Origin: Bacillales bacterium
GTDB lineage: Bacteria; Bacillota_I; Bacilli_A; RF39; UBA660
NCBI GenBank assembly: GCA_016292035.1
Contig: JAEEZR010000044.1
Coordinates: 7,760-71,759, forward strand
Direction: 5' to 3'
Length of the DNA stretch: 64,000 bases
In this document: positions 2,962-33,767 of the stretch, piece by piece
How the letters are laid out: each line of letters starts with the position of its first letter
How positions within the stretch are numbered: position 1 is the first letter of the stretch
Position numbers and translations under genes: made by a program
The notes under the pieces: model-generated
Seen by the model: only the letters and a program-made list of their open reading frames with translations
Database searches by the model: none
Told to the model about the DNA's origin: nothing

Positions 2962-2970
2962 CTTATATAT

Positions 2971-2999
2971 TTGACACTCAACTGTTTAAGTGATATTAT
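2971..2999 (+). promoter_or_regulatory. sigma-A promoter for the SAM riboswitch/metK
   Basis: TTGACA (2971-2976), 17 bp spacer, TATTAT (2994-2999), just upstream of the riboswitch P1. Confidence 0.75.
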
Positions 3000-3007
3000 T
3001 TAAATAC

Positions 3008-3127
3008 ATCTTATAAAGAGTGATGGAGGGACTAGCCCGATGAAGTCACACCAACCTATTAAGTTAGGTGGTAATGCTAGATCTATAAGATAACTTTTAT
3101 ACTCAAGGTTATCTTGAGTATTTTTTT
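3008..3127 (+). ncRNA. SAM-I (S-box) riboswitch lacking P4, with terminator/antiterminator platform
   Basis: P1 ATCTTATA(3008-3015)/TATAAGAT(3084-3091). Conserved AAGAG..GGAGGGACTAGCCCGATGAA core. P3 ACCAACC/GGTGGT. Pseudoknot CTAG/CTAG. Terminator ATACTCAAG-GTTAT-CTTGAGTAT plus T-tract (3099-3127). Antiterminator AAGATAAC/GTTATCTT. Lies upstream of metK. Confidence 0.93.
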
Positions 3128-3155
3128 GTTTATAAGATGTAGAAAGGAGGTAATT

Positions 3156-3938
3156 ATGATAGAAAAAGTTAATCCTTCTCATCCAGATAAACTTGCTGAT
3201 AGAATAGCTGGTGCTTTAGTTGATTTAGGTTATAAGAAGAGTAATAATCCTAAAGTAGCAGTAGAAGTTTTACTAGGACACGGCTATTGTCATATTATCA
3301 TAGAGACTAGTGAAGAATATAGTTTTGAAGAAGTAGATAGCATAGTTAAAAGAATAGCTGGTAATTTAAAACTAGATTTATTAGTTGTTAAGCAAGACGT
3401 TCATCTTGATGATAACCAAAATGGAAGTATTAGATGCGGGGATAATGGTATTTTTAAAGGAGTACCACTAAAAGATGAAGAGAAGAAGTTATCTAAGATA
3501 GCTAGGGCTATTTACGCCAAGTATCCTACTGATGGTAAATATATATTAGATGGAGAAAAGTTAGTAATATGCCAGAGTAATGCTCCTAGAGAAGAGCTAG
3601 AAAAAGACTATCCAGGAGCCATTATTAATCCACTAGGAGACTGGACTGGTGGAAGTGATGTAGATAGCGGTGCTACTAACAGGAAACTAGGCAGTGACAT
3701 GGCTTCTTCTGTTACTGGTGGAGGACTTCATGGAAAAGATTTATCTAAAGCAGATGTTAGTATTAATATATATGCATTTTTAAAAGCACAGGAAACTAAT
3801 AAAGAAGTTAAAATATCATGCGCTATAGGAGACGAAACAGTAGATGGAAAACCATATAGTGAAATAGTTGATATAGCTAGAAGCTATATTAACAATATTG
3901 GTGGCTTTGAAGAATTTGCTAAATGGGGATTATATTAA
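3156..3938 (+). CDS. metK: Compact S-adenosylmethionine synthetase (260 aa)
   Basis: EKVNPSHPDK, GDNG, DSGATNRK and GGGLHGKDLSKAD match MetK catalytic motifs. Start moved to ATG 3156 after AAGGAGG. Preceded by a SAM-I riboswitch. Confidence 0.85.
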   Translation: MIEKVNPSHPDKLADRIAGALVDLGYKKSNNPKVAVEVLLGHGYCHIIIETSEEYSFEEVDSIVKRIAGNLKLDLLVVKQDVHLDDNQNGSIRCGDNGIFKGVPLKDEEKKLSKIARAIYAKYPTDGKYILDGEKLVICQSNAPREELEKDYPGAIINPLGDWTGGSDVDSGATNRKLGSDMASSVTGGGLHGKDLSKADVSINIYAFLKAQETNKEVKISCAIGDETVDGKPYSEIVDIARSYINNIGGFEEFAKWGLY

Positions 3939-4022
3939 TATTATGCTTTTGAATTCTGCGGTAATTAATTGTTTAAAAAATAGATAATAAGTGTTATAAT
4001 AACACAAAAAAGAGGGGATTTT

Positions 4023-5510
4023 ATGTACGAAGAGGATTTAAAAGCAGATATTTCTTCCGTAGTTGACTTCATTAATATTAAAAGCTTGCCTGAGATGATT
4101 AGCGTTTTTTTGCATGACAATGGCTGTAAGAAATATAGCAATTTAAGGAAATTTTATTCAGGCATGCTTGATTCTTTTGGAGAAGATATTAAGAATTCAT
4201 ATTTGAATAGAATTCTTAAATATTTATCAAGTGATAAACCGTCAGATATTGCATTAATAGATGGTATTAATAATGGTGTTTATGATAAAGAACTTCTTGA
4301 TTTTACTAATAAATTAGTAAAAGAAATCAACAAGATAGAAAATTATGAATCCTTGTATGAACTATTAAATAAAAAAATTAATTTTGTATTTTTTAGTTCG
4401 GATGATGAGTTTATTGCTGTGAAAGATTATCATAATAATAAGGACTATGTTAGTTTTGTTTTTAATTTATTTAAGCATTCGTTTAGGACATATCAAAAAT
4501 CTTTACCAGCCATTATGGGTAGAAGTTTATATACTCAGTCTCGAACGATGTATAGCGGTTTATCTGGACATATTAGATTTTTAAATGCTAGCTCATCTAT
4601 TGGAAATGATGATGCTACTTTAGAGCTATATAGTATCTTATTCTATAAAGATCATGATACTGCTGTTAGAATTATAACTAGGTCAAAAGATAATGAAGCT
4701 GTATTATGGTCAGTGGCTTTTAATTTGGAGAACAATTTTTTAAATGAAGAAACTGTTCAGATAGTAAAAAACAGGTTTAACTATATATATAATATGAAGG
4801 ATGAATTTATTGATAAAATAACAGTTACTGATAAAGCCAAAAAAACTTTAAATGAGGAATCTTTATTATTCGCTTATAGAATGTATTATTACTGCTACAA
4901 TGAATATCATTTTACTAAATCTGGAAATAGTTTGGGTAAATTACTTATTTTTGGGGCAGTTAGTTATGATAACGATAAAGAGAAGAGTATTGCACTTGGA
5001 AAAGATTTTTTAAAAAAAGAAATCAAATTAGGAAACATTAATGCCATTACTAATTTGGCAGTCTTCTTATATGATAATCCAAGTGATAAAGACTATGATT
5101 ATAAAAAGATAAAGAAATGGTTTGAAATATCGGCGTCTTTTGGTGATATGGAAGGTAATTATTATTATGGAAGAATGCTTTATGATGAAGGTAAATATGA
5201 TAGATCATTTAAATATTTATTATATGCAAGTGAACGTAAGTGCCCTGAGGCTATGGAATTATTAGGTGAATATTATGAACTAAAAGATGATGTTGATAAT
5301 GCTATTAAATATTATAAAATGGCTATTATGAATAAATACTATGATGCGGCATATAAGGTTGCTCTACTATACTTTAATTTAAAAAATATTCAAACTGAAT
5401 CTTGTGAAGTCTTGGAGGAAATGGGAATCGATTATTTAAAAAAATATTATAATCTATTTAGTGATTGCGTAAAACAAAAAGCTGAATTATTGATTGAAAA
5501 AAAATTCTAG
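4023..5510 (+). CDS. Hypothetical protein with C-terminal Sel1/TPR-like repeats
   Basis: Repeated A...LG.Y......A..YY..A and GNYYYGRMLY helical motifs in the last ~170 aa. Confidence 0.65.
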   Translation: MYEEDLKADISSVVDFINIKSLPEMISVFLHDNGCKKYSNLRKFYSGMLDSFGEDIKNSYLNRILKYLSSDKPSDIALIDGINNGVYDKELLDFTNKLVKEINKIENYESLYELLNKKINFVFFSSDDEFIAVKDYHNNKDYVSFVFNLFKHSFRTYQKSLPAIMGRSLYTQSRTMYSGLSGHIRFLNASSSIGNDDATLELYSILFYKDHDTAVRIITRSKDNEAVLWSVAFNLENNFLNEETVQIVKNRFNYIYNMKDEFIDKITVTDKAKKTLNEESLLFAYRMYYYCYNEYHFTKSGNSLGKLLIFGAVSYDNDKEKSIALGKDFLKKEIKLGNINAITNLAVFLYDNPSDKDYDYKKIKKWFEISASFGDMEGNYYYGRMLYDEGKYDRSFKYLLYASERKCPEAMELLGEYYELKDDVDNAIKYYKMAIMNKYYDAAYKVALLYFNLKNIQTESCEVLEEMGIDYLKKYYNLFSDCVKQKAELLIEKKF

Positions 5511-5536
5511 GAATTTTTTAAAAATTCCTAGTTTTT
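5507..5536 (+). terminator. Intrinsic terminator
   Basis: CTAGGAATTTT-TTA-AAAATTCCTAG followed by TTTTT. Confidence 0.8.
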
Positions 5537-5595
5537 ATTTTACTATTTTTTTTATTTTTCATATTTTAATATATTTACAGAAAGGAGAGATATTA

Positions 5596-6780
5596 ATGGA
5601 TAATGTATTGATATATTATAACAATGATAGCTTGCTATATATTATAGAGGATTTAAAAAAGTTATATGGACTGCGTTGTTTTGAAATATTAAGATGTGGT
5701 GAAAGAGCAAGCCAAGAAATGTATGATTCTATTCCTATATTAAGTGATTATAGAAACGTTGCAAAAAATAAATATAGCTACGCATTTGTTATTAGTGAAG
5801 CACCTTTTGTAAATAAGATGGTGTATGAACTTCATTTGCTTGGAGTTAAAACTGTATATATTTTAAATGCTGAATACTTGCCAGTATTAAATAATGATGA
5901 GACGATTAATAAAATAATTACTAAATTTGATTTGTCTAGTAAACCACTTGTTGGTTATGTAGAAACTCATGTTTATAATCAATGTAATCTTAATTGCAAG
6001 GGTTGTACTCATTTTTCTAATATTGATAACAGCAAGGCAATCAGCTTAATGGATTTTGAAAAAAATATGTTTTTGCTTAGTAAGTTTTATAATGTTAATA
6101 CTTTGAGACTTATGGGTGGTGAACCTTTACTTAATAGAGATTTGGATAAATATATATTGATTGCTAGGAAGTACTTCCCATTTTCTAATATTGATATTGC
6201 AACTAATGGTCTTTTAATAACTAGATTACCTGAAGAAACTATTAAAGTTATTACAGAAAATAATATTGCTTTAAAAGTTTCACTTTATTTACCTGTTGAT
6301 AAGATTAAAGATAAGCTAGAGGCATTTTTTAGTAAACATGGTATAAGACATATATATGGAAACGGCTGCAAGCAAGTTGATGATAATGTTTTAATCAGAA
6401 GGTTTCATAAATGTTTAACATTGGAAAAACAATTTAATGCTAAGTATAACTGTGAAAATTGTTTCGCTAGGGAATGCTGGTTTCTAAAGAATGGGCTAAT
6501 AGCTAAATGTGTAACACCGCTTCAAATAGAAATATTAAATAGGAAATTTGGCACTTGTTTTGAGGTCACTGATAAAGACTTTATAAATCTTGAAACAATG
6601 TCTGAGTCTTCTTGGAATGATATTAATAAGTTATTATCCGAAAATGATTTTTGCAAATATTGTACTCCCGTGAAAGAAGAGTATGAGTGGGAGATTAAAA
6701 GTAGTAATCAAGAATTAGAAGATTACATAGTAGGAGGAAGAAAATATGAAAAAGATAAGCGTAATCGTACCGGTTTATAA
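5596..6780 (+). CDS. Radical SAM protein of unknown reaction, with extra C-terminal cysteines (possible auxiliary Fe-S cluster)
   Basis: CNLNCKGC (CxxxCxxC), LMGGEPLL, IATNGLL. Downstream CENC...C...KC...FCKYC. Start moved to ATG 5596 after AAGGAG. Confidence 0.9.
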   Translation: MDNVLIYYNNDSLLYIIEDLKKLYGLRCFEILRCGERASQEMYDSIPILSDYRNVAKNKYSYAFVISEAPFVNKMVYELHLLGVKTVYILNAEYLPVLNNDETINKIITKFDLSSKPLVGYVETHVYNQCNLNCKGCTHFSNIDNSKAISLMDFEKNMFLLSKFYNVNTLRLMGGEPLLNRDLDKYILIARKYFPFSNIDIATNGLLITRLPEETIKVITENNIALKVSLYLPVDKIKDKLEAFFSKHGIRHIYGNGCKQVDDNVLIRRFHKCLTLEKQFNAKYNCENCFARECWFLKNGLIAKCVTPLQIEILNRKFGTCFEVTDKDFINLETMSESSWNDINKLLSENDFCKYCTPVKEEYEWEIKSSNQELEDYIVGGRKYEKDKRNRTGL

Positions 6781-7714
6781 TACCGAAGAATATATTGAGA
6801 AATGCATAAGAAGTATTATGAATCAAACTTATAAAAATATGGAAATAATAATTGTCAATGATGGATGCACAGATAACAGTATTAAAGTGGTTGAAGAATT
6901 AAAAAAAAGTGATGATAGAATTATCATAGTTAATCAGGAAAATCAAGGAGTGTCTGCTGCTAGAAACGCCGGCTTAGAAAAAGCTTCGGGAGAATATGTG
7001 GCATTTGTTGATAGTGATGATTATTTAGATGAGAAGATGTATGAAAAATTAGTGAATTATATGGAAGATAATGATGCTGATTTAGTATCTGCAAGAGCTT
7101 TTATTGTTGAAAGAAATAGTATGCCAGGTGAAAATGATTATAACAATTATGTTGATTTGTTTACTTCTAAGAAGCAGGTTTTAAAGGCATATGCTGATGC
7201 TTTTTTAACAATAGCAGTATGGGATAAATTGTTTACTAGAAAAGTAATTGGCAATACTAGATTTGATTCTACTGTTTTTTGTGAAGATGCTAAATTTGTA
7301 TTAGATGTATGTGAAAATGCTAGGAGAATATTATGTACTTCTGAAAGACTATATTATCATTTAAAAAGAACTGGCAATTCATTAACAAACACTTCATTTA
7401 ATAAGTTTTATATGACTCTTTATACTTATATGAAAGATGAAAGAGATAAAATGATTAGAAAAAATAGTGAATATGAGGAATATGCTAAAAAAATATACTT
7501 CAACACACTACATCATCTAATAAAGGTGTATAAGAGAGACTGGGATCACAAAAAGCTGGATGATTATCATATTGAGGAAATTGATTTGCTACTTGGAGAA
7601 ATGAATGCATTCTTGATAGATAATGAGAGGTTTATTGATTCAAAATCATATATAAATGCCAAAGATATAGTTGAGTTATTAACATTTAGACTTAATGGTG
7701 TAAGGGGGAAATAG
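6746..7714 (+). CDS. Glycosyltransferase family 2
   Basis: ISVIVPVYN, IIIVNDGCTD, GVSAARNAGL, AFVDSDD (DxD). Overlaps the radical SAM stop. Confidence 0.92.
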   Translation: MKKISVIVPVYNTEEYIEKCIRSIMNQTYKNMEIIIVNDGCTDNSIKVVEELKKSDDRIIIVNQENQGVSAARNAGLEKASGEYVAFVDSDDYLDEKMYEKLVNYMEDNDADLVSARAFIVERNSMPGENDYNNYVDLFTSKKQVLKAYADAFLTIAVWDKLFTRKVIGNTRFDSTVFCEDAKFVLDVCENARRILCTSERLYYHLKRTGNSLTNTSFNKFYMTLYTYMKDERDKMIRKNSEYEEYAKKIYFNTLHHLIKVYKRDWDHKKLDDYHIEEIDLLLGEMNAFLIDNERFIDSKSYINAKDIVELLTFRLNGVRGK

Positions 7715-7716
7715 TT

Positions 7717-9261
7717 ATGATAATTGGTATAACAGGTAAAAGTGGATCTGGTAAGTCTACTGCAAGTAGCTACATTAATGCTAATCTTGAGAATGTGCTT
7801 TATATTTCAGTAGACAATATTGTAGAAGAGAATATAAAAGGTAATATAATCGAGAAGGTTAATAGAGAATTAAAAGAAAAATACAATATGGGTCCATATG
7901 GAAGAGTAGAAATTATTGATTCGTTTTATGCTGAGGATGATGAGCATAAATTCGTTTATGAAATTTTTAAGAAAAGATTAGTTGAAGATACTAGGGAGAG
8001 AATAAATTATTATAAAAAAACAGGCAAGGATATAATCGTGGATTGGTTTATGCTTGAAGTATCTGAACTTTTTGATGACTGCGATATAAAAATACTTTTT
8101 AAGGCTCCAATGGATGTAAGGAGAGTTAGAGTAATAAACAGAGGAAATTTTAAAGCTGGCTGTTTTGAAAAAAATGAAAAATCTCATGACGAGAAGAACG
8201 AAGGACTATATGATTATGTTTTAGATTCAACTACTGACTGGAAACCGACCATTAATAAGATTTTCAATATAGCTAATCCTAGTGATATAGTTTTAGGTCA
8301 GCGTGATACTATATCTGTTATAATTCCTGCTTATAACTGTGAAAAGTATATTAAGAGTTGTCTTGAAAGCTTAAAGCATCAAACTTATAGAAATTTGGAA
8401 ATAATTGTTGTTAATGATGGTTCAACTGATAATACTCTTAAAATATGTGAAGAAATGCAATACGATGATTATAGAATAAAGATTATTAATCAGGAGAACA
8501 AAGGTGTATCTGCTGCACGAAATAGAGGTCTAGAAGAAGTAACAGGTAAGTATATATCTTTTGTTGACGCTGATGATGTTTTAGAACCAGATATGTATGA
8601 AATAATGTATAAAGATATGTATTTAAATACAGCTGATGTTGTTAGAGTGGGTGCTTATGTTCACGATAGAAGCGGAAATATAAGGCATATATATAACGAT
8701 AATACGGTTTTAGTTATAGAAGATAAAGGTGATATTATACATAAATTTTCTAAAGGTGAGCTATCAATAGCTGTGTGGGATAAATTGTTTACAAAAAGAA
8801 TAATTGGCGACACTAGATTTAGAGAAAATGTATATCAGGAAGACACAATGTTTGTATGGGATATTTTAAAAAAATCTAATAAAGTAGTTTGTGATAAAAG
8901 ACAATTATATCACTATATAAAGAAAAGTGATGGCTCATTAACAAACAAAATATTTGATGAATGGAATTTTGAATTAGAAAAATATGCTGAAGATTTCTAT
9001 GATTATATTGTTAATAATTATCCTGACAATAAAGAAGATGCAGAGCTATTTTACTTTAATAGTTTATACTTTATTCTAAAAAGATACATGAGAGATTTAA
9101 TGTTTGTAAAAGATAATATGAACTATAAAGACAGAATAAACGTAATAATGAAGAAAGTTGAAGAAATGTTACCTTTAATGATAGAAAACAATAGTGTTTC
9201 TGAGAAAAACATAAATAATATCAGTGATATTAAAAGTAAATTACTTCAACTATGGAGATAA
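7717..9261 (+). CDS. Fusion: N-terminal P-loop kinase (dephospho-CoA/nucleotide-kinase-like) plus C-terminal GT2
   Basis: GITGKSGSGKST Walker A, IIVDW, and a lid-like R..R..NR in the first ~185 aa. Then ISVIIPAYN...VNDGSTD...FVDADD GT2 domain in the same frame. Confidence 0.85.
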   Translation: MIIGITGKSGSGKSTASSYINANLENVLYISVDNIVEENIKGNIIEKVNRELKEKYNMGPYGRVEIIDSFYAEDDEHKFVYEIFKKRLVEDTRERINYYKKTGKDIIVDWFMLEVSELFDDCDIKILFKAPMDVRRVRVINRGNFKAGCFEKNEKSHDEKNEGLYDYVLDSTTDWKPTINKIFNIANPSDIVLGQRDTISVIIPAYNCEKYIKSCLESLKHQTYRNLEIIVVNDGSTDNTLKICEEMQYDDYRIKIINQENKGVSAARNRGLEEVTGKYISFVDADDVLEPDMYEIMYKDMYLNTADVVRVGAYVHDRSGNIRHIYNDNTVLVIEDKGDIIHKFSKGELSIAVWDKLFTKRIIGDTRFRENVYQEDTMFVWDILKKSNKVVCDKRQLYHYIKKSDGSLTNKIFDEWNFELEKYAEDFYDYIVNNYPDNKEDAELFYFNSLYFILKRYMRDLMFVKDNMNYKDRINVIMKKVEEMLPLMIENNSVSEKNINNISDIKSKLLQLWR

Positions 9262-9263
9262 TT

Positions 9264-9737
9264 ATGAAATGCATAGGTATACTATGGAATCCTATGAATA
9301 GTTTAAGAGAAGAGGCAATTGAGGATATAAAAAGGTATGCAACAATAGAAGATACTATATGCGTTGATTTGAAAGATAGATACTTAGACTTTTTAGAGGA
9401 TATATATCCCTTTGATGGAATACATAAAGATATACATATTTTTAAAGCGAGCACAATGATAGATAAATATGAATCAAATGAGATATGTATACTATTTTTA
9501 GAATTAGAGGACTCTGAAAAGGAGTTTTGTGATAGGAAACACACATATATTTATAGGAATGTCGAAAATATTAAGTCTTTTATTAGAAATAAATATAAGA
9601 ATAGAATAAAAGGATATTCTTTTGATAACGTTTTTCATATGACGGATGATAAAAACGAATACTTATATACACTAGGTGTTATATATAAATATGTTAAAGT
9701 TGAATCTTTAAAATTAAAGAAAAGAGGTGAATTATGA
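9264..9737 (+). CDS. Hypothetical protein, possibly NDP-kinase-like fold
   Basis: Start moved to ATG 9264 after GGAG. KSFIRNKY and NVFHMTDD loosely parallel the NDK TIRxxy and N.xHxSD motifs. Confidence 0.55.
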   Translation: MKCIGILWNPMNSLREEAIEDIKRYATIEDTICVDLKDRYLDFLEDIYPFDGIHKDIHIFKASTMIDKYESNEICILFLELEDSEKEFCDRKHTYIYRNVENIKSFIRNKYKNRIKGYSFDNVFHMTDDKNEYLYTLGVIYKYVKVESLKLKKRGEL

Positions 9738-10243
9738 GTTATATATTAGCGCAGGTCTTTGCTCTAGTAGCATGCATTTTTTATACAATTAGTATGCAGT
9801 GCAAAGACAGAAAGAATATTTTATTATTATTTATAATTGGTAATGTGATAGGTGCTCTTGGATTATTTTTATTAAAAGCTTATGCTGGATCATTAATTCA
9901 GGTGGTTTTTGGAATAGAGACATTTATAAATTACATATTAGAAGTAAAAGGAAAGAAGAACAAGCCTTTTCTAGTAGCAATATATATAATGTTATCTGTT
10001 ATTATATCAATAATAACATTTAAAGGTCTTATAGACTTGCTACCACTTGTATGTGCATTATTACATACTATCACTATTATTCAAGAAAAAGAAAGAAATA
10101 TAAGATATACTAATTTAGCTAGTTTGGTGTTATGGATTCCATATTACATTATTTTTGCTGCGTGGGCTAATTTAGCTAGCACATTATGTATAATAGTTTC
10201 TAATATTATTTCTATAGTAAGATATGATATAAATAAAAGATAG
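9734..10243 (+). CDS. YgjV-family inner membrane protein
   Basis: Hydrophobic 169 aa with AQVFALVA...SMQCKDRK...IRYTNL...LWIPY pattern. ATGA overlap with the previous gene. Confidence 0.75.
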   Translation: MSYILAQVFALVACIFYTISMQCKDRKNILLLFIIGNVIGALGLFLLKAYAGSLIQVVFGIETFINYILEVKGKKNKPFLVAIYIMLSVIISIITFKGLIDLLPLVCALLHTITIIQEKERNIRYTNLASLVLWIPYYIIFAAWANLASTLCIIVSNIISIVRYDINKR

Positions 10244-17238: not shown

Positions 17239-17374
17239 TTTGTACCTCCTTTAAATTGGCTTCTATGATAAGATATAAACGCCATTTTGTCAATAATTTC
17301 GTGTATTAATAAATAAGCATGAATGCTTATTTTTTCTTTTTGTGTTATAATAATTTTAGAATAGGAAGGTATAT

Positions 17375-18532
17375 ATGGCTAAAGGATATAAAAAGAGTTA
17401 TTTGCTTATTAATACAGTATTATCTTTATTTATTATTATGCTTTTAATTAATATTATATTTTTTAAGTATAGTAGTTTTATAGTATTATTCTTATCTTGT
17501 TTTCTTCCTTTTTTAATTATTTATATAAGACTAGGATATGAAAAGAAGAAGAGACGTTTTACTTATGAAACTATGTTTTATACTTTTGTATTTGTAATAC
17601 TCTTTTTACTTATTACGTATATTATTGGCTTATTTACTGGATTTTATCATAATGTATATAGATTAAATTTAAATAATATTATTCGAAATGTTTTACCTTA
17701 TATTCTATGTATAGGAGTAGGAGAATTATTTAGATATGAAATTGTTAGAAAGGGAGAAGGGTCTAATCTTTCTTATGTTTTGATTACTTTATTATTTGTT
17801 ATATTAGATTCGACTTTGTTTATTAATACATATGATTTAGCTAGTTTTGATGGATTAGTTAAGTTTATATGCTCGATTTTATTTCCTAGTGTATTTAAGA
17901 ATTTACTTCTTTTATATCTTACTAAACATGGTGGGCCTTATCCTAGTATAGTTTATCGTTTAATTATGGATTTAAAGATATTTATTATGCCAATATTCCC
18001 TAATTTTGGTTTATATTTAGAGTGCATTATTAATACTAGTATACCTGTGTTAATTGGTGTTTTAACACATATTAGTTTAAAACAATTTAAAAATAATGAA
18101 GTAGAAGTTAGAAAAATTAAGTCTACTGGTATGTATAAGTATGCTCTTCTTATATTTTTACTTATATTAACTGTATCTATTAATATTTTAACTAGTGGTA
18201 AGTTTAAATATACTATGGTCGCTATTGGATCTAATAGTATGAATCCAGTGTTTTATAGGGGTGATGCAGTTATATATGCTAAAGTTAAGAAGCCAGAAGA
18301 TTATCAAATAAAAGATATTTTAGTTTTTAGAAAAGAAGATAAAATAGTAGTACATAGAATTATTAGTATTAAAAAAGTAGATAATGATTATATTTATTAC
18401 ACAAAAGGAGATAATAATATTGGGCCTGATGGATATCCTATTCTATTTAAGGATACACTAGGCGTTTATAAACTTAGAATAAAGTATATTGGCTTGTTTA
18501 GCGTATACTTGACAGAGCTATTTAATAATTAA
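17375..18532 (+). CDS. Signal peptidase I, SipW/S26B (Ser-His) type, with a large N-terminal multi-TM domain
   Basis: GSNSMNP (Ser), RGD, VVHRI (His), TKGDNN..D at the C-terminus; about 8 TM upstream. Confidence 0.85.
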   Translation: MAKGYKKSYLLINTVLSLFIIMLLINIIFFKYSSFIVLFLSCFLPFLIIYIRLGYEKKKRRFTYETMFYTFVFVILFLLITYIIGLFTGFYHNVYRLNLNNIIRNVLPYILCIGVGELFRYEIVRKGEGSNLSYVLITLLFVILDSTLFINTYDLASFDGLVKFICSILFPSVFKNLLLLYLTKHGGPYPSIVYRLIMDLKIFIMPIFPNFGLYLECIINTSIPVLIGVLTHISLKQFKNNEVEVRKIKSTGMYKYALLIFLLILTVSINILTSGKFKYTMVAIGSNSMNPVFYRGDAVIYAKVKKPEDYQIKDILVFRKEDKIVVHRIISIKKVDNDYIYYTKGDNNIGPDGYPILFKDTLGVYKLRIKYIGLFSVYLTELFNN

Positions 18533-18595
18533 TTTGTTATTATATAATTAATATGGTATACTTTAGTATATTATAAATAGTATAAAGAGGTAAAA

Positions 18596-19675
18596 ATGAA
18601 AAGAAGGGCTTTAGTAGTAGTGATATACTTAGTTCTTGCGTTGTTGGCAATAACTGGCCTGTTATTTGAAATACACCTATGCAAAGCTAAACTTAATAGC
18701 AGACAGATTGCTTATCATAAAGAAGCTAGTATAAATTATAATACATATTTAAAAGATGGTTCTTATTTAGAGGACAGTTTTAACTTTGTAGCAAATTTAA
18801 TAGATTACTTTAAAGTAGATTTTAATTATCTATATTCTTTGAGTGAGAAAGTAGATTATATTATTACTTATGATGTTAATGCTACTTTAGAAGTTTTTGA
18901 TAGTGATAATAAAACTAAGCCTATAGATAGAAGTGAATTTGTTATTCTACCTAAAACTACTACTTCTGGGTCTGGAGAAGCTATTAAACTAGATTTATAT
19001 AATCAAATAATTGAATATCAAACTTTTAATAAAGTAGTTCAAAATTGGAAAAAAGAAGTTACACCTGATGCTTTATTAAAGATTAATTTTAATGTTTCTT
19101 GGAGTGGACAAGCTTCTACATTTGTAAATCCAATTAAAGATAGTTATAAGGCTACTTTAAAGATACCTATTTCTTCTCAATCTAAGACTATTGAAATACA
19201 AAAACCTAGTGGTTTTAGTGAAGATAAGGTTTTAACTGAAAGAGAAAAACTTCATTATAGTTATTTAATTATAATGGGATCTACTGCTTTCTTTATTATT
19301 ACTGTTATTGCTAGATTATTTATAGTTTTATTAGAAGCTAATGAAGAAAAAGATCAGTATGAACAAAAGGTTAATAAAGTTTTAAGAGAATTTGATAGGG
19401 CTATTACTGAGGCTAAGGGTTCTTTTGTTAAGAATCCTAAAGATAATAATATTGAAGTAAATGATTTTTATGAACTTATGGATGTTCATGATAATTTAAA
19501 TGTACCTATAGTATTTTATAGAGACAGCTCTAGTAAATGTTCTTTTGTTGTTAGGAATGATAAAGATGTTTACTTTGCTACTATTAAGAGAGAAAAAATT
19601 AATAATATTCCTATAAAAGAAGAGAAGGTGGAAGAAAAAAAGAAAAAAGTTGTCAAAAAAACTGTAAAAAAATAA
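18596..19675 (+). CDS. DUF5305-like membrane protein
   Basis: N-terminal TM, beta-rich extracellular region (INYNTYLK, IDYFKVDFNY), second TM, and a cytoplasmic V.DF.EL.DV...LNVPI tail; next to a signal peptidase. Confidence 0.6.
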   Translation: MKRRALVVVIYLVLALLAITGLLFEIHLCKAKLNSRQIAYHKEASINYNTYLKDGSYLEDSFNFVANLIDYFKVDFNYLYSLSEKVDYIITYDVNATLEVFDSDNKTKPIDRSEFVILPKTTTSGSGEAIKLDLYNQIIEYQTFNKVVQNWKKEVTPDALLKINFNVSWSGQASTFVNPIKDSYKATLKIPISSQSKTIEIQKPSGFSEDKVLTEREKLHYSYLIIMGSTAFFIITVIARLFIVLLEANEEKDQYEQKVNKVLREFDRAITEAKGSFVKNPKDNNIEVNDFYELMDVHDNLNVPIVFYRDSSSKCSFVVRNDKDVYFATIKREKINNIPIKEEKVEEKKKKVVKKTVKK

Positions 19676-19734
19676 AAAAAACATTTACTTAATGGGATTA
19701 ATGAATTATTATTAAAATAGAAGGAGAAGATAAA

Positions 19735-20319
19735 ATGAAAGATAATAAGAAACTATTATATAGTATGGTTATAGTTGCATTAATATTATCAGTTGTTGGT
19801 ATTTCAATCGGTTTTGCCGCTATGAGTGCACAACTTACTGTTAATGGTACAACTACAGTTACACCAGCTACATGGAAAATTAAATTCCAAGAATTAGCAA
19901 AGGTTAGTGGAGATGATACTTTAATCGTTACAGCACCACAAATAACTTCTGATACACATATCGGAAATTATGCACTTAAACTAACTAAACCTGGAGATAA
20001 AGTTGTTTATAAATTCCAAGTTGCTAATACTGGTACACTTGATGCTATTCTAACTAGTTATACATTTGCAACACCTACTATAACAGGTACAGGTGCAACT
20101 GCTACTGATGATGCTGCTATCGTAAGTAGAAATTTAATTTATACTTTAACTCATAACGATGCAACTAATTCAGCTATTCAAGTTGGTGAAACTCTAAATG
20201 TTAATCAAAGCACTGAGTTCTTACTTACTGTTGAATATGATGCTAATGCAGATGAACTTCCAACAGATGATGTAACTATCTCTGGTATGGATATTACATT
20301 TACATACGGACAAAATTAA
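19735..20319 (+). CDS. Secreted pilin/TasA-camelysin-like subunit with SipW-type signal
   Basis: KK + hydrophobic + SIGFA|AMSAQLTVNGTTTV N-terminus; Thr-rich beta-sandwich with PGD..Y.F.V.N.GT.DA motif. Confidence 0.65.
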   Translation: MKDNKKLLYSMVIVALILSVVGISIGFAAMSAQLTVNGTTTVTPATWKIKFQELAKVSGDDTLIVTAPQITSDTHIGNYALKLTKPGDKVVYKFQVANTGTLDAILTSYTFATPTITGTGATATDDAAIVSRNLIYTLTHNDATNSAIQVGETLNVNQSTEFLLTVEYDANADELPTDDVTISGMDITFTYGQN

Positions 20320-20327
20320 TTATAAAG

Positions 20328-20356
20328 AAGTAGATAATAGATTATCTACTTTTTTT
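20328..20356 (+). terminator. Intrinsic terminator after the pilin-like gene
   Basis: AAGTAGATAAT-AG-ATTATCTACTT followed by a T-run. Confidence 0.8.
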
Positions 20357-20390
20357 ATGTTATAATTTTATTATTATAGGAGAACATATT

Positions 20391-22340
20391 ATGAGAAGAG
20401 TAATATATAACAAAGTATTTTTTTCAGTAATTGTATTTTTGTTTTTATCTTTACTAACTATTTCTATTGGATTTAGTTCTCTTTCTACATCTTTAACTGT
20501 TAATGGTACTACTACATTTGCACCAGTGGATATGCTTAGAGTTACTAAGATAACTAATACTGGTTATTCAGATGCAGATTTAATAAGTGCTACTCACACT
20601 ATAGATACTATAAGTGCTCTTCTTGATATTAACAGCACTAGTGGGTATGCTACATATGATGTTACTATTAGTAATCTAGGGCAAGTAGATAAAGTATTAA
20701 CTAGCATTAGTGAAGATGTGTTTTCTAATAGCGATATGAAATATGAAATACTAGGAATAAATCCTGGTACTGTTATAAAATCTAAAGAAACATTAAAGTT
20801 TAAAGTAACTTTTAAATATAGAAACGGTGTAAACACTATTAACGAGGAAAGATTAAATTGTACATTAAAATTTATCTTCGATGATTATGTTTATGTTCCT
20901 CAAAGTTATACTATTAATTTTGATCCTAATGGTGGAGTAGGTGAAATGAATCCTATGCAAGCATGGGAAGATGAAATCTATCAATTAAGTTTCAATAGTT
21001 TTACTAAAGAAGATTATGTATTTAAACATTGGAATACAAGCGCTGATGGTAGTGGAACTAGTTATAGAAATGGTCAAAGTATTAAGAATATTAATAATGG
21101 TGAAGAAAGTATAACATTATATGCTCAGTGGAGACCTATGTCTGATACAGTTGATTATCCTGGTGAATGTATTTTTGGAGGAGAGGGTGTTGATATTGTA
21201 GGAGACTGCGCTGAAGGAGAAAGTAAAGATTATATCATGACTGATATAAAACCATTTAGTGAAGAAAATTACTTGAAGAACTTTGAGTTTAAATTTACTG
21301 TTAGCGAGTTAAATAACCAAGGTAATAGAGATACTGTGTTTAATATGCTTTATGAAAACAGTGATAATATAAAGGGTATATATCCAGGAATACTTCTTCG
21401 TGTAGAAAATGGTAAATGGTTATTCCAAGTAGGTGCTGGTAATAACGACAGAGTCAAGCTAAACTTTGCTTTAAATGATTTAGTTGGAAAAGAGTTTAAA
21501 GTAATAAGACATAATGATAATGGCACTATTAATGTTTATTACTCTATAGATGGGGCTGATCCAGTATTTGTAAAAGATATTACTAATTTATATGCTACTT
21601 TTGATACTCCTCTTACTATAGGAGCAAATCTAGAAATAGATAATGTTACAGCTAATAGACATGCTAATGCTACTTTAAGTGATATATATTTTTCATTCTT
21701 AGATGATGGTGTAACATTAGATGAAATAATGGGAAGAACTCCAATAGAAGAAACTCATGAATTTAAGACGGTATTTTTAGTAGAAGGACCATGTACATTT
21801 AATGGAAATTCAGGATTTATTACTGGAGATAACTGCACAGAATACGCTAATAAGAAATTAATAGATAGTGAAGTATATTTATTCAATAATGATAACTATG
21901 AGAAAGATTTTGAAGTAGGATTTGATATAGATGCTCTTACTTATAGTGGTCAAGATGAAGCTCAAGTAACACTATTTAATGCATTTAGAGAAAGATCTGG
22001 ACTAGGATATGGTGTACTTGTTAGAAGAACTTCTACTAATAATACTTATGAATTAATAGCCAGAGATGGTAATGGTGTTGCTAAAACTACTAAGCTTTCT
22101 TTAAATGCACCATTAAATATTAAAATAGTTAGAGTAGGTGGAAAGGTATGCTATAGCCTTAATAATGCTAACTATAAGCTTGCAGTAGATGTTAGTGGAC
22201 TTACTCTTCCATTTGATGTACCTGCTACATTCGGAGGAAGTACTAATTCTAGTGATCAACCATTTAGATTTATTAAAGGTACTTTTTCTAATATGTATAT
22301 TAAACTAGGAACTATAGATGAAGAAATAACATGTAGTTAA
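20391..22340 (+). CDS. Secreted adhesin-like protein: pilin-like N-domain, InlB-B (Listeria-Bacteroides) repeat, two tandem ConA/LamG-like domains
   Basis: SIGFS|SLSTSLTVNGTTT signal. YTINFDPNGG...F..WNT.ADGSG..Y...TLYAQW repeat. Duplicated C.F.G...I.G.C...D...F..+NY.K.FE..F domains. Confidence 0.65.
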   Translation: MRRVIYNKVFFSVIVFLFLSLLTISIGFSSLSTSLTVNGTTTFAPVDMLRVTKITNTGYSDADLISATHTIDTISALLDINSTSGYATYDVTISNLGQVDKVLTSISEDVFSNSDMKYEILGINPGTVIKSKETLKFKVTFKYRNGVNTINEERLNCTLKFIFDDYVYVPQSYTINFDPNGGVGEMNPMQAWEDEIYQLSFNSFTKEDYVFKHWNTSADGSGTSYRNGQSIKNINNGEESITLYAQWRPMSDTVDYPGECIFGGEGVDIVGDCAEGESKDYIMTDIKPFSEENYLKNFEFKFTVSELNNQGNRDTVFNMLYENSDNIKGIYPGILLRVENGKWLFQVGAGNNDRVKLNFALNDLVGKEFKVIRHNDNGTINVYYSIDGADPVFVKDITNLYATFDTPLTIGANLEIDNVTANRHANATLSDIYFSFLDDGVTLDEIMGRTPIEETHEFKTVFLVEGPCTFNGNSGFITGDNCTEYANKKLIDSEVYLFNNDNYEKDFEVGFDIDALTYSGQDEAQVTLFNAFRERSGLGYGVLVRRTSTNNTYELIARDGNGVAKTTKLSLNAPLNIKIVRVGGKVCYSLNNANYKLAVDVSGLTLPFDVPATFGGSTNSSDQPFRFIKGTFSNMYIKLGTIDEEITCS

Positions 22341-22353
22341 GGAAGGTGATAAT

Positions 22354-22761
22354 ATGAAAAAGATGTTAGTGCCAATACTTACACTTATAAGTGTAATTTT
22401 GTGTGCAGTTATGGTTATTATTCTATGTAATAAAAAAGAAGTATGGAATAACACTGATTCTAATCAAATAGAATTTACTTATACTATAAATGGTGGTGTT
22501 CCATATAAATGGGAATATGAAATAGAAGACGAGAGCATCGTATCTTTTGTTAAAGATTATATACTAGAAGATAAAAATGTTGATGGATTAGTAGGCGCTC
22601 CTGTTAGTACTAATTATGTATTTAAAGGAGTTGAAGAAGGAGTTACTACTGTTACATTTAAATATATTGATTTAACTAAGAGTGATACTCCTGTAATTAA
22701 AAAAGAAGTTCATAAACTTAAAGTAGATAAAGATAAGAATATATCTTTACTAGCTTTATAA
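22354..22761 (+). CDS. Chagasin-like protease inhibitor (I42) family, membrane-anchored
   Basis: NGGVPYKW...GAP...YVFKG...G..TVTFKY Ig-like pattern; N-terminal TM. Confidence 0.65.
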   Translation: MKKMLVPILTLISVILCAVMVIILCNKKEVWNNTDSNQIEFTYTINGGVPYKWEYEIEDESIVSFVKDYILEDKNVDGLVGAPVSTNYVFKGVEEGVTTVTFKYIDLTKSDTPVIKKEVHKLKVDKDKNISLLAL

Positions 22762-22830
22762 GAAAGCTTATGCTTTCTTTTTTTTATTGTTTGATGTATA
22801 ATATACTTCATTAAAAAAAAGGGGGATTAT

Positions 22831-23943
22831 ATGATACTTTATAGGGCTATTAATGATAAAGATTATCAAAATGTTGTTTTAAATTGTAAAAATATATACG
22901 CAATTAGAACTAGAAGTAAAGAAGACTTTGAAACGGTTTTAGATTATTACTCTGGCACTAATATGCAAAACTCATTTAATTTTATTATGAATCATATTAA
23001 TGGTAAATGGGCAGAAAAAAAAGCTACTTCTCCTTGGATTTCATTAAGTAAAGATCTTTTTTATACAATTGAAGCTTATTCTATGCCACAAGCTATAAAG
23101 AAAGGTAATGATACTAGAAGAAGCATAGTAGTTGTAGATCAAAAGAGAGTTTTAAGTGCAAAAGAAGAAATAGAAAACGCTAAAGGGTTATTTGCAATTG
23201 ATTTAAGTGATGATAATATTCTTAATTTAGTTAGAGATGGAATTATAAAAATAGAAGAGTATGATAAAACAAGATTAGATTTTAGACTTAATAATTCACT
23301 TTATAGAGATTGTCTTAAAAGTAGAAAATCTGAAAGAGTAATTAGTTCTAAAGCATCTGTTTCTTCAGAAGTTCTGGCTTATTTAAAAGTTAATTATACC
23401 GATATTAAAGCAATTCTTTATCCAATTATTATAGATTTAATGTATTCATATAATTTAAATATTGATATGGATAATGCTTCATCTATTCAGTCACTTGATA
23501 ATATGTATAGTAAACTTCAATCATTATATGATAGTATGGATCCACTTTATTTAGACTTATATCCAGATGTCATTAGTGGGGTAGATTTAACAAGTTATTT
23601 GATTGAACACTATAATACGATTGAAGGCGATAATGTAGAAGAAAAATATGAAAATTTAAAAGAAAGAAAAAGAGAATTACTATTTGAACTTGCTACTCAA
23701 TTATTTGGTAGTAAGGGTGTTTATAAACCTCAAAGATTAGTTGATGACTTAGCACTAGTTTATGAATATAATCATTTAATGCAAGTCATTAATAATAGAA
23801 GTAGAAAACTATCTAAAAGCTTCTTTGATAATATTTTAATTATTGAAAAAGATGGAGAACTATTTGTATACAATAATGATAAAGATACATATGAAAGTAG
23901 GACTAAAACAATAGATAGAAAACTTATTTTAAATAATAAATAG
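22831..23943 (+). CDS. Hypothetical protein with predicted N-terminal R-S-E ADP-ribosyltransferase fold
   Basis: LYRA (R5), H55-I-N-G, SPWISLS (S71-x-S73), SSEVLAY (E180). No signal peptide; own terminator. Confidence 0.55.
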   Translation: MILYRAINDKDYQNVVLNCKNIYAIRTRSKEDFETVLDYYSGTNMQNSFNFIMNHINGKWAEKKATSPWISLSKDLFYTIEAYSMPQAIKKGNDTRRSIVVVDQKRVLSAKEEIENAKGLFAIDLSDDNILNLVRDGIIKIEEYDKTRLDFRLNNSLYRDCLKSRKSERVISSKASVSSEVLAYLKVNYTDIKAILYPIIIDLMYSYNLNIDMDNASSIQSLDNMYSKLQSLYDSMDPLYLDLYPDVISGVDLTSYLIEHYNTIEGDNVEEKYENLKERKRELLFELATQLFGSKGVYKPQRLVDDLALVYEYNHLMQVINNRSRKLSKSFFDNILIIEKDGELFVYNNDKDTYESRTKTIDRKLILNNK

Positions 23944-32972: not shown

Positions 32973-33767
32973 TTAATAACTCATTTTTATTAGCTTTGCG
33001 TGAAGTACAACTCTTTCATTATTTGAATAACATGATGATAGTGTTAATATTTTGTCTTCTGTTGATACAGTAGTATCAAATATATATGCACTTCTTCCTT
33101 TTATTTTATTTAAAAATTTAGCGTAGTCTTCATCTGATCTATAATCTACTTGTAAGTAGTCATTTGTTTCTTTTATATGATATACACTAAATACTTGCCA
33201 TAGATAATTATATTTTTCTGTAGATACTTTTATAATGTGATTATTCTTATTATTAAACCATGTATTTCTTAGTATATTTTTAAGTGTTCCAAACATTGAG
33301 CCATTAAGCATTGAATGACCATATATAATGTTATTTTTATCTGTTAGGTTTTCATCATTTCTATAGTCTAAGAATATCCATCCTGCTTCATTATAAGTTT
33401 TATCAAAAGAATGAGACATGTAGTAATCATTATCTTTATATTTTACTATTGGATAGTTTATGTCTGTTCCTTCAACTATTATCCATCCGATTGAATCTGT
33501 ATTTTTTTCTTTTAAAGTTTTTATATCTACTTCTACTAGTTTAGTATTTATTTTATCTTCTGTTGGAGATATTTCTTGTACCTGTGTTTTAGTTTCATCT
33601 ATTTCAATAGGCTTTACTTCTTCTTGTATTTCCTTTATTTGTTTTTCTCCTTTAGAAGTAAATGTTTTCCATCTTATTATTTTATAAGATGAGAAAACTA
33701 TGCCAATTATAAATATTAGCATTGATATAAATAGTATAAATTTTTTAATATTTATTTTTCTTTTCAT
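32973..33767 (-). CDS. srtB: Class B sortase
   Basis: GWI...GTDINYPI, IFLDYRN, IYGHSM..GSMFG.L, LTLSSC...R; N-terminal TM. Confidence 0.88.
   Translation of the reverse strand: MKRKINIKKFILFISMLIFIIGIVFSSYKIIRWKTFTSKGEKQIKEIQEEVKPIEIDETKTQVQEISPTEDKINTKLVEVDIKTLKEKNTDSIGWIIVEGTDINYPIVKYKDNDYYMSHSFDKTYNEAGWIFLDYRNDENLTDKNNIIYGHSMLNGSMFGTLKNILRNTWFNNKNNHIIKVSTEKYNYLWQVFSVYHIKETNDYLQVDYRSDEDYAKFLNKIKGRSAYIFDTTVSTEDKILTLSSCYSNNERVVLHAKLIKMSY

What the first reader, a model, noticed from the sequence alone, without database searches (positions are those of the whole stretch)
17375..22761. SipW-type peptidase / DUF5305 / pilin-like / adhesin / chagasin locus: candidate donor-strand fibre system
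Seen: a Ser-His signal peptidase precedes two secreted proteins sharing the signal and mature N-terminus SIGF(A/S)|xxSxxLTVNGTTT, plus a two-TM membrane protein. A terminator follows the small subunit. Established: SipW processes TasA/CalY, whose freed N-terminal strand polymerises fibres by donor-strand exchange. Inference: a major pilin (19735), a minor tip adhesin (20391), a membrane anchor or platform (DUF5305) and a dedicated peptidase form a sortase-independent surface fibre whose N-terminal strand differs from TasA's.
Basis: partly seen in the sequence, partly recalled or inferred. Interest (0 to 1): 0.65.

Follow-up and report, generated by a model that had tools for sequence, protein, structure and literature searches.

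The report
TasA/AbpX-type surface fibre operon
An uncultured small-genome gut or rumen bacterium carries an operon that most likely builds a self-assembling surface fibre of the TasA/AbpX biofilm-fibre kind; this layout was described in 2025-2026, so it is a new member of a known system.

Summary
Window 17375-22761 carries five co-directional genes:
- a signal peptidase I of the archaeal/ER type, fused behind nine membrane helices;
- a two-helix DUF5305-family protein;
- a 194-aa secreted beta-sandwich protein;
- a 649-aa paralogue with the same signal and mature N-terminus, plus binding-type domains;
- a chagasin-like inhibitor.

The peptidase, DUF5305 and small-subunit genes are syntenic in all six related genomes, and the large subunit follows in five. 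Small subunit and many-helix peptidase also sit side by side in at least 13 loci from other genera. The chagasin gene is not conserved.

The small subunit is a remote homologue of Pyrodictium abyssi AbpX (hhalign 91-93% as precursor, 61-70% as mature core; controls at most 2.6%). Its best fold match is the TasA fibre. Its most conserved stretch is the cleavage site plus an alternating hydrophobic strand, which the monomer model leaves unpaired.

The layout matches the AbpX-type loci of a 2026 preprint. The strand lacks AbpX's aromatic-2/acidic-4 calcium signature. Cleavage and polymerisation are inferred, not shown, because no multimer modelling or read data were available. I found no support for DUF5305 as an anchor.

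Verdict: new member of a known kind, in a very large unannotated subunit family (5,644 clusters).

The parts
17343..17351 (+). Extended -10 box TGTTATAAT, candidate promoter of the peptidase-DUF5305-subunit unit. The RBS AGGAAGG lies at 17364-17370.
   Evidence: Read from the sequence. The consensus scan does not list it because the -35 is poor. Inferred, with no transcript data.
17375..18532 (+). Dedicated signal peptidase I (385 aa). Residues 1-279 form nine membrane helices with invariant E117-x-x-R120-Y. The extracellular S26B catalytic domain follows, with S288, H327 and D346.
   Evidence: - TIGR02228 at 90.6 bits, over its cut-off.
- Family-averaged hydropathy and motif positions.
- The polytopic part occurs only in 373-395-aa peptidase fusions, apart from one 257-aa hit.
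18596..19675 (+). DUF5305-family protein (359 aa): membrane helix, extracellular beta-sandwich (37-214), second membrane helix (221-250), conserved cytoplasmic alpha/beta domain (254-336).
   Evidence: - Homologues hit PF17231.
- AF2 model with pLDDT 85.6.
- Invariant cytoplasmic residues.
- Syntenic in L001-L006.
19735..20319 (+). Major subunit (194 aa). The signal peptide is residues 1-28 and the predicted cut is GFA|AMS. The conserved N-terminal strand is residues 29-45 and the beta-sandwich core is 46-194.
   Evidence: - AF2 model: core pLDDT above 90, residues 24-39 below 50.
- hhalign to AbpX.
- Foldseek top hit is the TasA fibre 8aur.
- Information content is highest at residues 22-40.
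20324..20356 (+). Intrinsic-terminator-like hairpin plus a run of seven T, directly after the major-subunit gene.
   Evidence: - Fold of -15.7 kcal/mol, z = -2.98.
- A hairpin plus U-run is conserved in position, not in sequence, in L001-L006.
20358..20366 (+). Second extended -10 box TGTTATAAT, 25 nt before the large-subunit start. It is a possible internal promoter.
   Evidence: Read from the sequence. The same box occurs in L001, and -10-like boxes in L002-L006. Inferred.
20391..22340 (+). Minor subunit or adhesin (649 aa):
- the same signal and N-terminal strand as the major subunit;
- a complete subunit-like domain (about aa 30-165);
- a Flg_new repeat (aa 173-246);
- two unannotated repeats of about 200 aa (aa 250-450 and 451-649).
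It has no LPXTG motif.
   Evidence: - (subunit domain).
- (Flg_new, 39.2 bits).
- (internal repeat, E 1e-13).
- (no Pfam or PDB sequence match).
22354..22761 (+). Membrane-anchored chagasin-family (I42) cysteine-protease inhibitor. It starts 13 nt after the adhesin gene and is not conserved in related loci.
   Evidence: - PF09394 at 42.5 bits.
- Membrane helix at residues 5-23.
- No homologue in L001-L006.
22760..22787 (+). Intrinsic terminator that closes the locus.
   Evidence: Consensus scan: 8-bp stem with 3 G-C pairs, then a T-run.

Best explanation
The locus encodes a fibre of the TasA superfamily, AbpX type. The fibre is extracellular, needs no chaperone and assembles by donor-strand complementation.

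Proposed steps (all inferred unless marked):
1. The 194-aa major subunit and the 649-aa minor subunit are exported by Sec. Each carries a long N-terminal signal anchor.
2. The dedicated peptidase cuts them after [A/G]-[F/Y]-[A/S], that is GFA|AMS in the major subunit and GFS|SLS in the minor one. This peptidase is an archaeal/ER-type Ser-His enzyme placed outside the membrane behind nine helices. It probably works together with the DUF5305 protein.
3. Cleavage frees a conserved strand with alternating hydrophobic residues: A-[M/L/F]-S-x-x-L-x-[I/V]-x-G-x-A-x-V.
4. That strand inserts into the beta-sandwich of the next subunit and builds a fibre.
5. The minor subunit joins through the same strand and domain. 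It displays a Flg_new repeat and two unknown beta-rich repeats as binding modules.
6. A terminator directly after the major-subunit gene, with a possible internal promoter behind it, keeps the major subunit in excess.
7. The chagasin-like inhibitor is a lineage-specific passenger. It may protect the cell surface from cysteine proteases.

Shown here: gene content, homology, conservation, synteny, monomer fold and membrane topology.
Inferred: cleavage site, polymerisation, stoichiometry and adhesion.
For: Subunit homology:
1. Family profile against P. abyssi AbpX precursor: 91.2% probability, E 1e-6, 154 columns. The alignment places GISIGFA|AMSAQL on AIGLTYA|QWSETL, the start of AbpX's donor strand.
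2. Local reruns give 92.8-92.9% for precursors and 60.8-70.5% for the mature cores alone. Reversed and shuffled controls give at most 2.6%.
3. The best PDB fold match is the TasA fibre 8aur_A at probability 0.95.
4. 23 of 30 family members give weak Peptidase_M73 (TasA/camelysin) hits.

N-terminal strand:
5. In the AF2 monomer the core (46-194) is confident. The conserved residues 24-39 fall below pLDDT 50 and residues 30-48 form no secondary structure.
6. Across 150 cluster representatives, residues 22-40 are the most conserved block (2.59 bits). L34, I36, G38, A40 and V42 alternate.

Locus:
7. Peptidase, DUF5305 and subunit are syntenic in six related genomes, and a large subunit follows in five of them.
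8. Subunit genes sit next to the full-length many-helix peptidase in at least 13 loci of other genera, at 28-36% peptidase identity.
9. A Dehalogenimonas relative of the peptidase is flanked by DUF5305 and by small proteins that start GYA|AWTDE.
10. The preprint 10.64898/2026.01.04.697558 describes the same layout: a ten-helix signal peptidase I, DUF5305, minor subunits and tip proteins.

Modularity and expression signals:
11. 22 of the 150 best family representatives are long proteins with this domain at the N-terminus. Of the eight scanned, six carried LRR_5, DUF285 or DUF6273 domains, or a weak FGE-sulfatase-like match, behind it.
12. A terminator hairpin after the major-subunit gene is conserved in position in seven loci.
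Against: - No multimer prediction, no N-terminal sequencing and no transcript or microscopy data exist. Cleavage and polymerisation are therefore untested.
- The similarity of the mature core to AbpX is modest (61-70% probability, 87-89 columns). The Foldseek TM-score to TasA is low (0.34, E 0.011).
- No family member reaches the Peptidase_M73 cut-off. The profile finds no TasA or AbpX chain in a PDB sequence search, although 9SJ2 is present there.
- The donor-strand signature reported for AbpX homologues is absent. [quoted passage not shown] Here position 2 is M and position 4 is A in the window (T, Q or S in the family).
- No cell-wall or membrane anchor for the fibre is evident in the locus.
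Confidence: 0.7

Rival explanations
1. The two proteins are ordinary secreted or surface-bound monomers, such as a binding protein and an adhesin. They merely depend on a specialised signal peptidase for release, and the conserved N-terminus is a peptidase recognition element rather than a polymerising strand.
For: - Polymerisation is untested.
- The conserved block spans the cleavage site itself.
- The locus has no anchor or chaperone.
- Core similarity to AbpX and TasA is remote.
Against: - Conservation continues 14 residues past the predicted cut with an i, i+2 pattern (L34, I36, G38, A40, V42). That is more than signal peptidase I needs.
- This stretch aligns with the experimentally seen AbpX donor strand.
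- The monomer model leaves it unpaired.
- Tandem arrays of up to seven paralogous subunits occur in relatives, which is typical of fibre loci.
Confidence: 0.15
2. The N-terminal hydrophobic segment is not cut and serves as a membrane anchor. The proteins are then displayed as membrane-tethered monomers, and the peptidase fusion acts on other substrates.
For: - The hydrophobic region is long, about 19 residues.
- No experimental cleavage data exist.
Against: - The -3/-1 positions (G/A and A/S) fit signal peptidase I rules and are nearly invariant.
- The homologous site in AbpX is the predicted cut, and recombinant mature AbpX starting there forms the fibrils.
- The peptidase gene is tightly linked to subunit genes across genera.
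- The genome has other signal peptidases of this type for other substrates.
Confidence: 0.05
3. The subunits polymerise by strand donation but form a para-crystalline matrix or lattice between cells, as AbpX does, rather than a discrete cell-attached pilus with a tip adhesin.
For: - AbpX and TasA are matrix or bundling proteins.
- No anchor gene is in the locus.
- The minor subunit has a complete subunit domain, so it could sit anywhere in the polymer.
Against: - The calcium-binding acidic residue linked to AbpX lattice formation is missing.
- Acid content is lower: 10.8% D+E against about 15%.
- Adhesin-type C-terminal modules on minor subunits suggest attachment to external targets.
Confidence: 0.1

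Closest known systems
AbpX-type loci of the TasA superfamily (Pyrodictium abyssi AbpX, PDB 9SJ2 and 9RHP, and AbpX-like loci of archaea, Bacillota and Chloroflexota; bioRxiv 10.64898/2026.01.04.697558)
   Same: - A small acidic secreted beta-sandwich subunit with a conserved N-terminal strand directly after the signal peptidase I site.
- A dedicated signal peptidase I with about ten membrane helices.
- A DUF5305 protein with the same architecture: beta-sandwich, two membrane helices, cytoplasmic alpha/beta domain.
- Minor or tip subunits that share the strand.
- Profile similarity of 91-93% for precursors and 61-70% for mature cores.
   Different: - Mature position 2 is M (L, M or F in the family), not a conserved aromatic residue.
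- Position 4 is A (T, Q or S in the family), not an acid, so the calcium site is probably absent.
- There are no Cys in the window protein.
- D+E content is lower (10.8%).
- The locus has no SLH or LPXTG anchor, no sortase, no two-component system and no c-di-GMP genes.
- The host is a small-genome, host-associated member of the Bacilli.
Bacillus subtilis tapA-sipW-tasA (TasA fibre, PDB 8AUR; PMC9674648)
   Same: - An archaeal/ER-type Ser-His signal peptidase encoded beside its substrates.
- A signal ending aromatic-Ala|Ala.
- The freed N-terminal strand polymerises the fibre.
- The TasA fibre is the best fold match.
   Different: - The peptidase is not a SipW equivalog (58 bits against a cut-off of 190) and carries eight extra membrane helices.
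- There is no TapA.
- DUF5305 is present.
- The subunit misses the Peptidase_M73 cut-off (16.2 bits against 22.5).
- The minor subunit is a modular adhesin.
Haloarchaeal Tafi / Tat-dependent bundling pili (TafA/TafE pilins, TafD peptidase, TafG DUF5305; PMC11821415, PMC12337348)
   Same: A peptidase gene paired with a DUF5305 gene, next to donor-strand pilins and variable structural proteins.
   Different: - Tafi pilins use Tat signals.
- The TafD peptidase has four membrane helices.
- No sequence similarity to the Tafi pilins was tested here.

Membership tests
TasA superfamily of donor-strand fibre subunits | Beta-sandwich (jelly-roll) core homologous to TasA or AbpX | tested here: met
   - hhalign to AbpX: 91-93% for precursors, 61-70% for mature cores, controls at most 2.6%.
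- The Foldseek top hit is 8aur_A at probability 0.95, but with TM-score 0.34.
The relationship is remote but consistent.
TasA superfamily of donor-strand fibre subunits | Conserved amphipathic N-terminal strand directly after the signal-peptidase site | tested here: met
   - It is the most conserved block of the family and has alternating L34, I36, G38, A40 and V42.
- It is unpaired and of low confidence in the monomer model.
TasA superfamily of donor-strand fibre subunits | Polymerisation by donor-strand complementation | not testable with these tools
   The structure tool takes single window-encoded chains only, so no multimer model could be made. No experimental data exist.
AbpX-type locus | Dedicated signal peptidase I with about ten membrane helices | tested here: met
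   - Nine family-averaged hydrophobic segments lie before the catalytic domain, and there is a short hydrophobic C-terminal tail.
- TIGR02228 is over its cut-off.
AbpX-type locus | DUF5305 accessory protein (beta-sandwich, two membrane helices, cytoplasmic alpha/beta domain) | tested here: met
   - Homologues hit PF17231 at E 1e-11 to 1e-15. The window protein itself gives no hit.
- The AF2 architecture matches the published description.
AbpX-type locus | [quoted passage not shown] | tested here: not met
   - The window protein starts A-M-S-A-Q-L.
- In the family, position 2 is L (60), M (41) or F (33), and position 4 is T, Q or S.
- The Dehalogenimonas proteins do have A-W-T-D.
AbpX-type locus | Low pI (about 4) and about 15% Asp/Glu | tested here: inconclusive
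   The mature protein has pI 4.27 but only 10.8% D+E.
Pfam Peptidase_M73 (TasA/camelysin) | Score over the gathering cut-off (22.5 bits) | tested here: not met
   - The window protein scores 16.2 bits.
- 23 of 30 members give sub-threshold hits, with a best E-value of 5.7e-4.
SipW equivalog (NF046067) / archaeal-type signal peptidase I (TIGR02228) | Score over the curated cut-off | tested here: met
   - TIGR02228 is met at 90.6 bits against 51.85.
- The SipW equivalog model is NOT met at 58.4 bits against 190.
It is therefore an S26B peptidase of the SipW type, not SipW itself.
Chagasin inhibitor family I42 | Score over the Pfam cut-off | tested here: met
   PF09394 at 42.5 bits against 27.2, covering residues 38-115.
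Sortase-assembled Gram-positive pili | LPXTG sorting signal on the subunits and a pilin-specific sortase in the locus | tested here: not met
   - Both subunits end without LPXTG or a C-terminal anchor.
- The two sortase genes of the genome lie elsewhere.

The most novel reading that the evidence does not exclude
This subunit family is very large (5,644 clusters at 50% identity, 2,902 of them at E <= 1e-10) and has no Pfam or NCBIfam model. It may be a calcium-independent branch of donor-strand fibres.
- It is concentrated in small-genome, host-associated Bacilli.
- Its N-terminal polymerisation domain may serve as a universal plug for displaying interchangeable binding modules on one fibre. 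Examples seen are Flg_new, BspA-type LRR, DUF285, DUF6273 and the two unknown repeats here.
- A terminator-then-promoter junction after the major-subunit gene may set the stoichiometry.
Probability: 0.35. Interest if true: 0.55.

Novelty: new member of a known kind. Interest (0 to 1): 0.36.

Why it matters
If the fibre is real, many uncultured gut and rumen Bacilli with genomes near 1 Mb have a simple, chaperone-free way to build adhesive surface filaments. A single dedicated peptidase would switch the process on.

That would bear on three things:
- how these bacteria attach to hosts, feed particles or partner cells;
- annotation, because thousands of these proteins are currently 'hypothetical';
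- TasA/AbpX-based biomaterials, because a strand variant without the calcium site would be useful to compare.

The general design is already in the literature, so the gain is in breadth and detail, not in principle.

Tried and rejected
- PDB sequence searches with the subunit and with its family profile found nothing relevant. AbpX (9SJ2) is in that library.
- I looked for an SPC22/SPCS3-like fold in the DUF5305 model to test the 'peptidase accessory' idea. Foldseek returned only generic beta-sandwiches; the top hit was the TMEM106B luminal domain at E 1e-3 and TM-score 0.14. The result is inconclusive.
- hhalign of the subunit profile against the Dehalogenimonas small proteins aligned only the signal and strand (13-17% probability). 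DUF5305 against the 535-aa Dehalogenimonas DUF5305 gave only 32%.
- The adhesin C-terminal repeats gave no Pfam or PDB sequence match.
- The chagasin gene was checked as part of the module and rejected. It has no homologue in L001-L006.
- I considered that the peptidase's polytopic domain is a CPBP-type intramembrane protease. It has an invariant E-x-x-R-Y but no invariant His and no Pfam hit. An active CPBP protease is therefore not supported.
- The own genome has no Peptidase_M73 hit over the cut-off.
Full report
**What is there**

Window 17375-22761 holds five co-directional ORFs separated by 13-71 nt, each with a good ribosome-binding site. An extended -10 box, TGTTATAAT (17343-17351), precedes the first gene. 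A strong intrinsic terminator (22760-22779) follows the last. The DNA has 24-29% G+C. The assembly is 1.1 Mb at 76% completeness. The closest public loci come from uncultured rumen or gut 'Bacilli', 'Tenericutes' and 'Erysipelotrichaceae' MAGs.

**The peptidase (17375-18532, 385 aa)**

- Residues 256-380 match archaeal-type signal peptidase I, TIGR02228, at 90.6 bits against a cut-off of 51.85. The SipW equivalog model is missed (58 bits against 190).
- S288-M, H327-R and K-G-D346 are invariant in 18 homologues. This is a Ser-His enzyme of the S26B type.
- Nine family-averaged hydrophobic segments lie in front of the catalytic domain, with a Lys-rich N-terminus. The catalytic domain is therefore placed outside the cell.
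- The polytopic part has an invariant E117-x-x-R120-Y but no invariant His and no Pfam family.
- In a search of 5.8 billion proteins this part occurs, apart from one 257-aa hit, only in proteins of 373-395 aa, the size of the window's peptidase fusion. About half of them carry a precomputed signal-peptidase Pfam hit. The weakest hit is a Dehalogenimonas (Chloroflexota) 'signal peptidase I'.
- The four other peptidases of this type in the same genome are short and keep a C-terminal anchor instead.

**The two-helix protein (18596-19675, 359 aa)**

- Its own sequence does not reach Pfam DUF5305. Its homologues at 44-66% identity do, at E 1e-11 to 1e-15.
- The AF2 model (pLDDT 85.6) shows four parts: a membrane helix, an extracellular beta-sandwich (37-214), a second membrane helix (221-250) and a cytoplasmic alpha/beta domain.
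- This is the architecture published for DUF5305.
- The invariant residues cluster in the cytoplasmic domain: R264, D267, E293, D296, H298, D299 and N300.
- A fold search found only generic beta-sandwiches and no SPC22/SPCS3-like match. Its role stays inferred from linkage and from the peptidase-DUF5305 fusions reported in the literature.

**The small subunit (19735-20319, 194 aa)**

- The AF2 model (pLDDT 85.5) has an N-terminal helix (3-29) and a confident beta-sandwich (46-194). Residues 24-39 fall below pLDDT 50 and residues 30-48 form no secondary structure.
- The mature protein is acidic (pI 4.27) and has no Cys.
- The family is very large. It has 140 hits in the word-indexed search. A full scan of cluster representatives found 5,644 clusters at E <= 1e-3.
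- No curated model covers the family. 23 of 30 members give only sub-threshold Peptidase_M73 (TasA/camelysin) hits.
- Across 150 representatives the most conserved block is residues 22-40 (2.59 bits). The consensus is G-L-S-V-A-[F/Y]-A-A-[L/M/F]-S-x-x-L-x-I-x-G-x-A-x-V.
- The -3/-1 positions fit signal peptidase I, which gives the cut GFA|AMS. The following L34, I36, G38, A40 and V42 alternate as one face of a beta-strand.

**Relation to known fibres**

- The best PDB fold match is the TasA fibre 8aur_A, at probability 0.95, E 0.011 and TM-score 0.34.
- I took the P. abyssi AbpX sequence from the preprint's supplement. hhalign of the family profile against it gives 91.2% over 154 columns. It superposes GISIGFA|AMSAQL on AIGLTYA|QWSETL, the start of AbpX's cryo-EM donor strand.
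- Local reruns give 92.8-92.9% for precursors and 60.8-70.5% for mature cores alone. Reversed and shuffled AbpX controls stay at or below 2.6%.
- The subunit is thus a remote member of the TasA superfamily, nearest to AbpX among those I could test.
- It lacks the aromatic-2/acidic-4 signature that the preprint links to calcium-mediated strand complementation.
- The small proteins beside the Dehalogenimonas peptidase do carry that signature (A-W-T-D-E).

**The large subunit (20391-22340, 649 aa)**

- It shares the signal and strand with the small subunit (35% identity over 103 aa, E 3e-10).
- Its first 180 residues align to the family profile over 145 columns at 95.8%. Only the helix-containing insert (about residues 112-133 of the small subunit) is missing. 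It is therefore a complete subunit domain.
- Behind it come a Flg_new repeat and two divergent repeats of about 200 aa (27% identity, E 1e-13). The repeats have no Pfam or PDB sequence match.
- There is no LPXTG motif.
- In the family at large, 22 of the best 150 representatives are long proteins with this domain at the N-terminus. Of the eight scanned, six carried LRR_5, DUF285 or DUF6273 domains, or a weak FGE-sulfatase-like match, behind it.

**Synteny**

- Peptidase, DUF5305 and small subunit occur in that order in all six GTDB loci found. A large subunit follows in five of them and is absent in L004.
- In a sample of 300 genomes of the class, 17 of about 36 genomes of the same family have homologues, against 1 of about 264 genomes from other families. 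Homologues often form tandem arrays of up to seven copies.
- In at least 13 loci of other genera a subunit gene adjoins the full-length many-helix peptidase, at 28-36% peptidase identity.
- The chagasin-like gene (PF09394 over its cut-off) has no counterpart in any related locus. I treat it as a passenger.

**Transcription signals**

- The hairpin plus seven T after the small-subunit gene (20324-20356; fold of -15.7 kcal/mol, z = -2.98) is conserved in position but not in sequence in all six related loci. This argues for function.
- A -10-like box follows it: TGTTATAAT here and in L001.

**Comparison with the literature**

- TasA, AbpA, Tafi, cannulae and AbpX all polymerise by donor-strand complementation. 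They are often encoded beside a signal peptidase I (PMC9674648, PMC9245690, PMC12337348, PMC12518558).
- The 2026 AbpX preprint describes bacterial and archaeal loci with a ten-helix signal peptidase I, a DUF5305 'accessory' protein, AbpX-like minor subunits and tip proteins.
- The present locus fits that description feature by feature, except for the strand signature and the lack of anchor and regulator genes.
- After I had reached this reading, the scan's own notes showed that other agents filed similar loci the same way in many genomes. I treat that as a sign that the locus type recurs, not as evidence.

**Verdict**

The key step, strand-mediated polymerisation after cleavage, remains an inference from homology, conservation and the monomer model. 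I rate it a new member of a known kind, of moderate interest. The interest lies mainly in the size and lack of annotation of the subunit family and in its variant strand.

Noticed in passing
own genome, contigs C28:13873-16159 and C22:9100-21591 (outside the window): At least four more archaeal-type signal peptidase I genes lie beside small secreted proteins whose signals end in TasA-style motifs (SYAAFT, TYAWFT, NTFAWF). This small genome therefore holds several independent SipW-type modules. None reaches the Peptidase_M73 cut-off.
   Followed up: partly
window about 32991-33479 (-): There is a sortase gene (PF04203, 52 bits) inside the window, about 10 kb downstream of the locus. A second sortase lies on contig C22. 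The organism therefore does have sortase-dependent surface display as well.
   Followed up: no
window 17311-17335 (+): A hairpin, AATAAGCAT-GAA-TGCTTATT, followed by a T-run lies between the divergently transcribed 181-aa gene and the peptidase promoter. Its purpose is unknown; it could be a terminator, a leader or a regulatory site.
   Followed up: no
window 18596-19675 (residues 254-336 of the DUF5305 protein): The most conserved part of the DUF5305 protein is its cytoplasmic alpha/beta domain (R264, D267, E293, D296, H298, D299 and N300 are invariant), not the extracellular sandwich. This hints at a conserved partner or activity on the cytoplasmic side.
   Followed up: partly
window 21138-22337 (adhesin residues 250-649): Two divergent repeats of about 200 aa, each starting G-x-C-x-F-x-G...GD-x-C-x-E, have no Pfam or PDB sequence match. 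They form an unannotated, probably binding, domain.
   Followed up: partly
family alignment of 150 representatives against window 19735-20319: The wider family consensus carries two Cys (C-t-G-t-G ... V-c-x-N-l). The second aligns with a Cys of AbpX, which is disulfide-bonded. The window's subunit has lost both.
   Followed up: no
window 22831-23943 (+): A 370-aa ORF lies after the terminator. It has only a weak DUF7587 match (22.7 bits, below the cut-off), and its function is unknown.
   Followed up: no
L047 (Dehalogenimonas, CP146612.1:195166-210332), positions 2747-9855: A histidine kinase and a response regulator are followed by three small proteins (two start GYA|AWTDE or TAA|WTDE), a 388-aa many-helix signal peptidase and a 535-aa DUF5305 protein. 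This is a canonical AbpX-type locus in Chloroflexota, linked to the window's peptidase by its polytopic domain (E 2e-4).
   Followed up: partly
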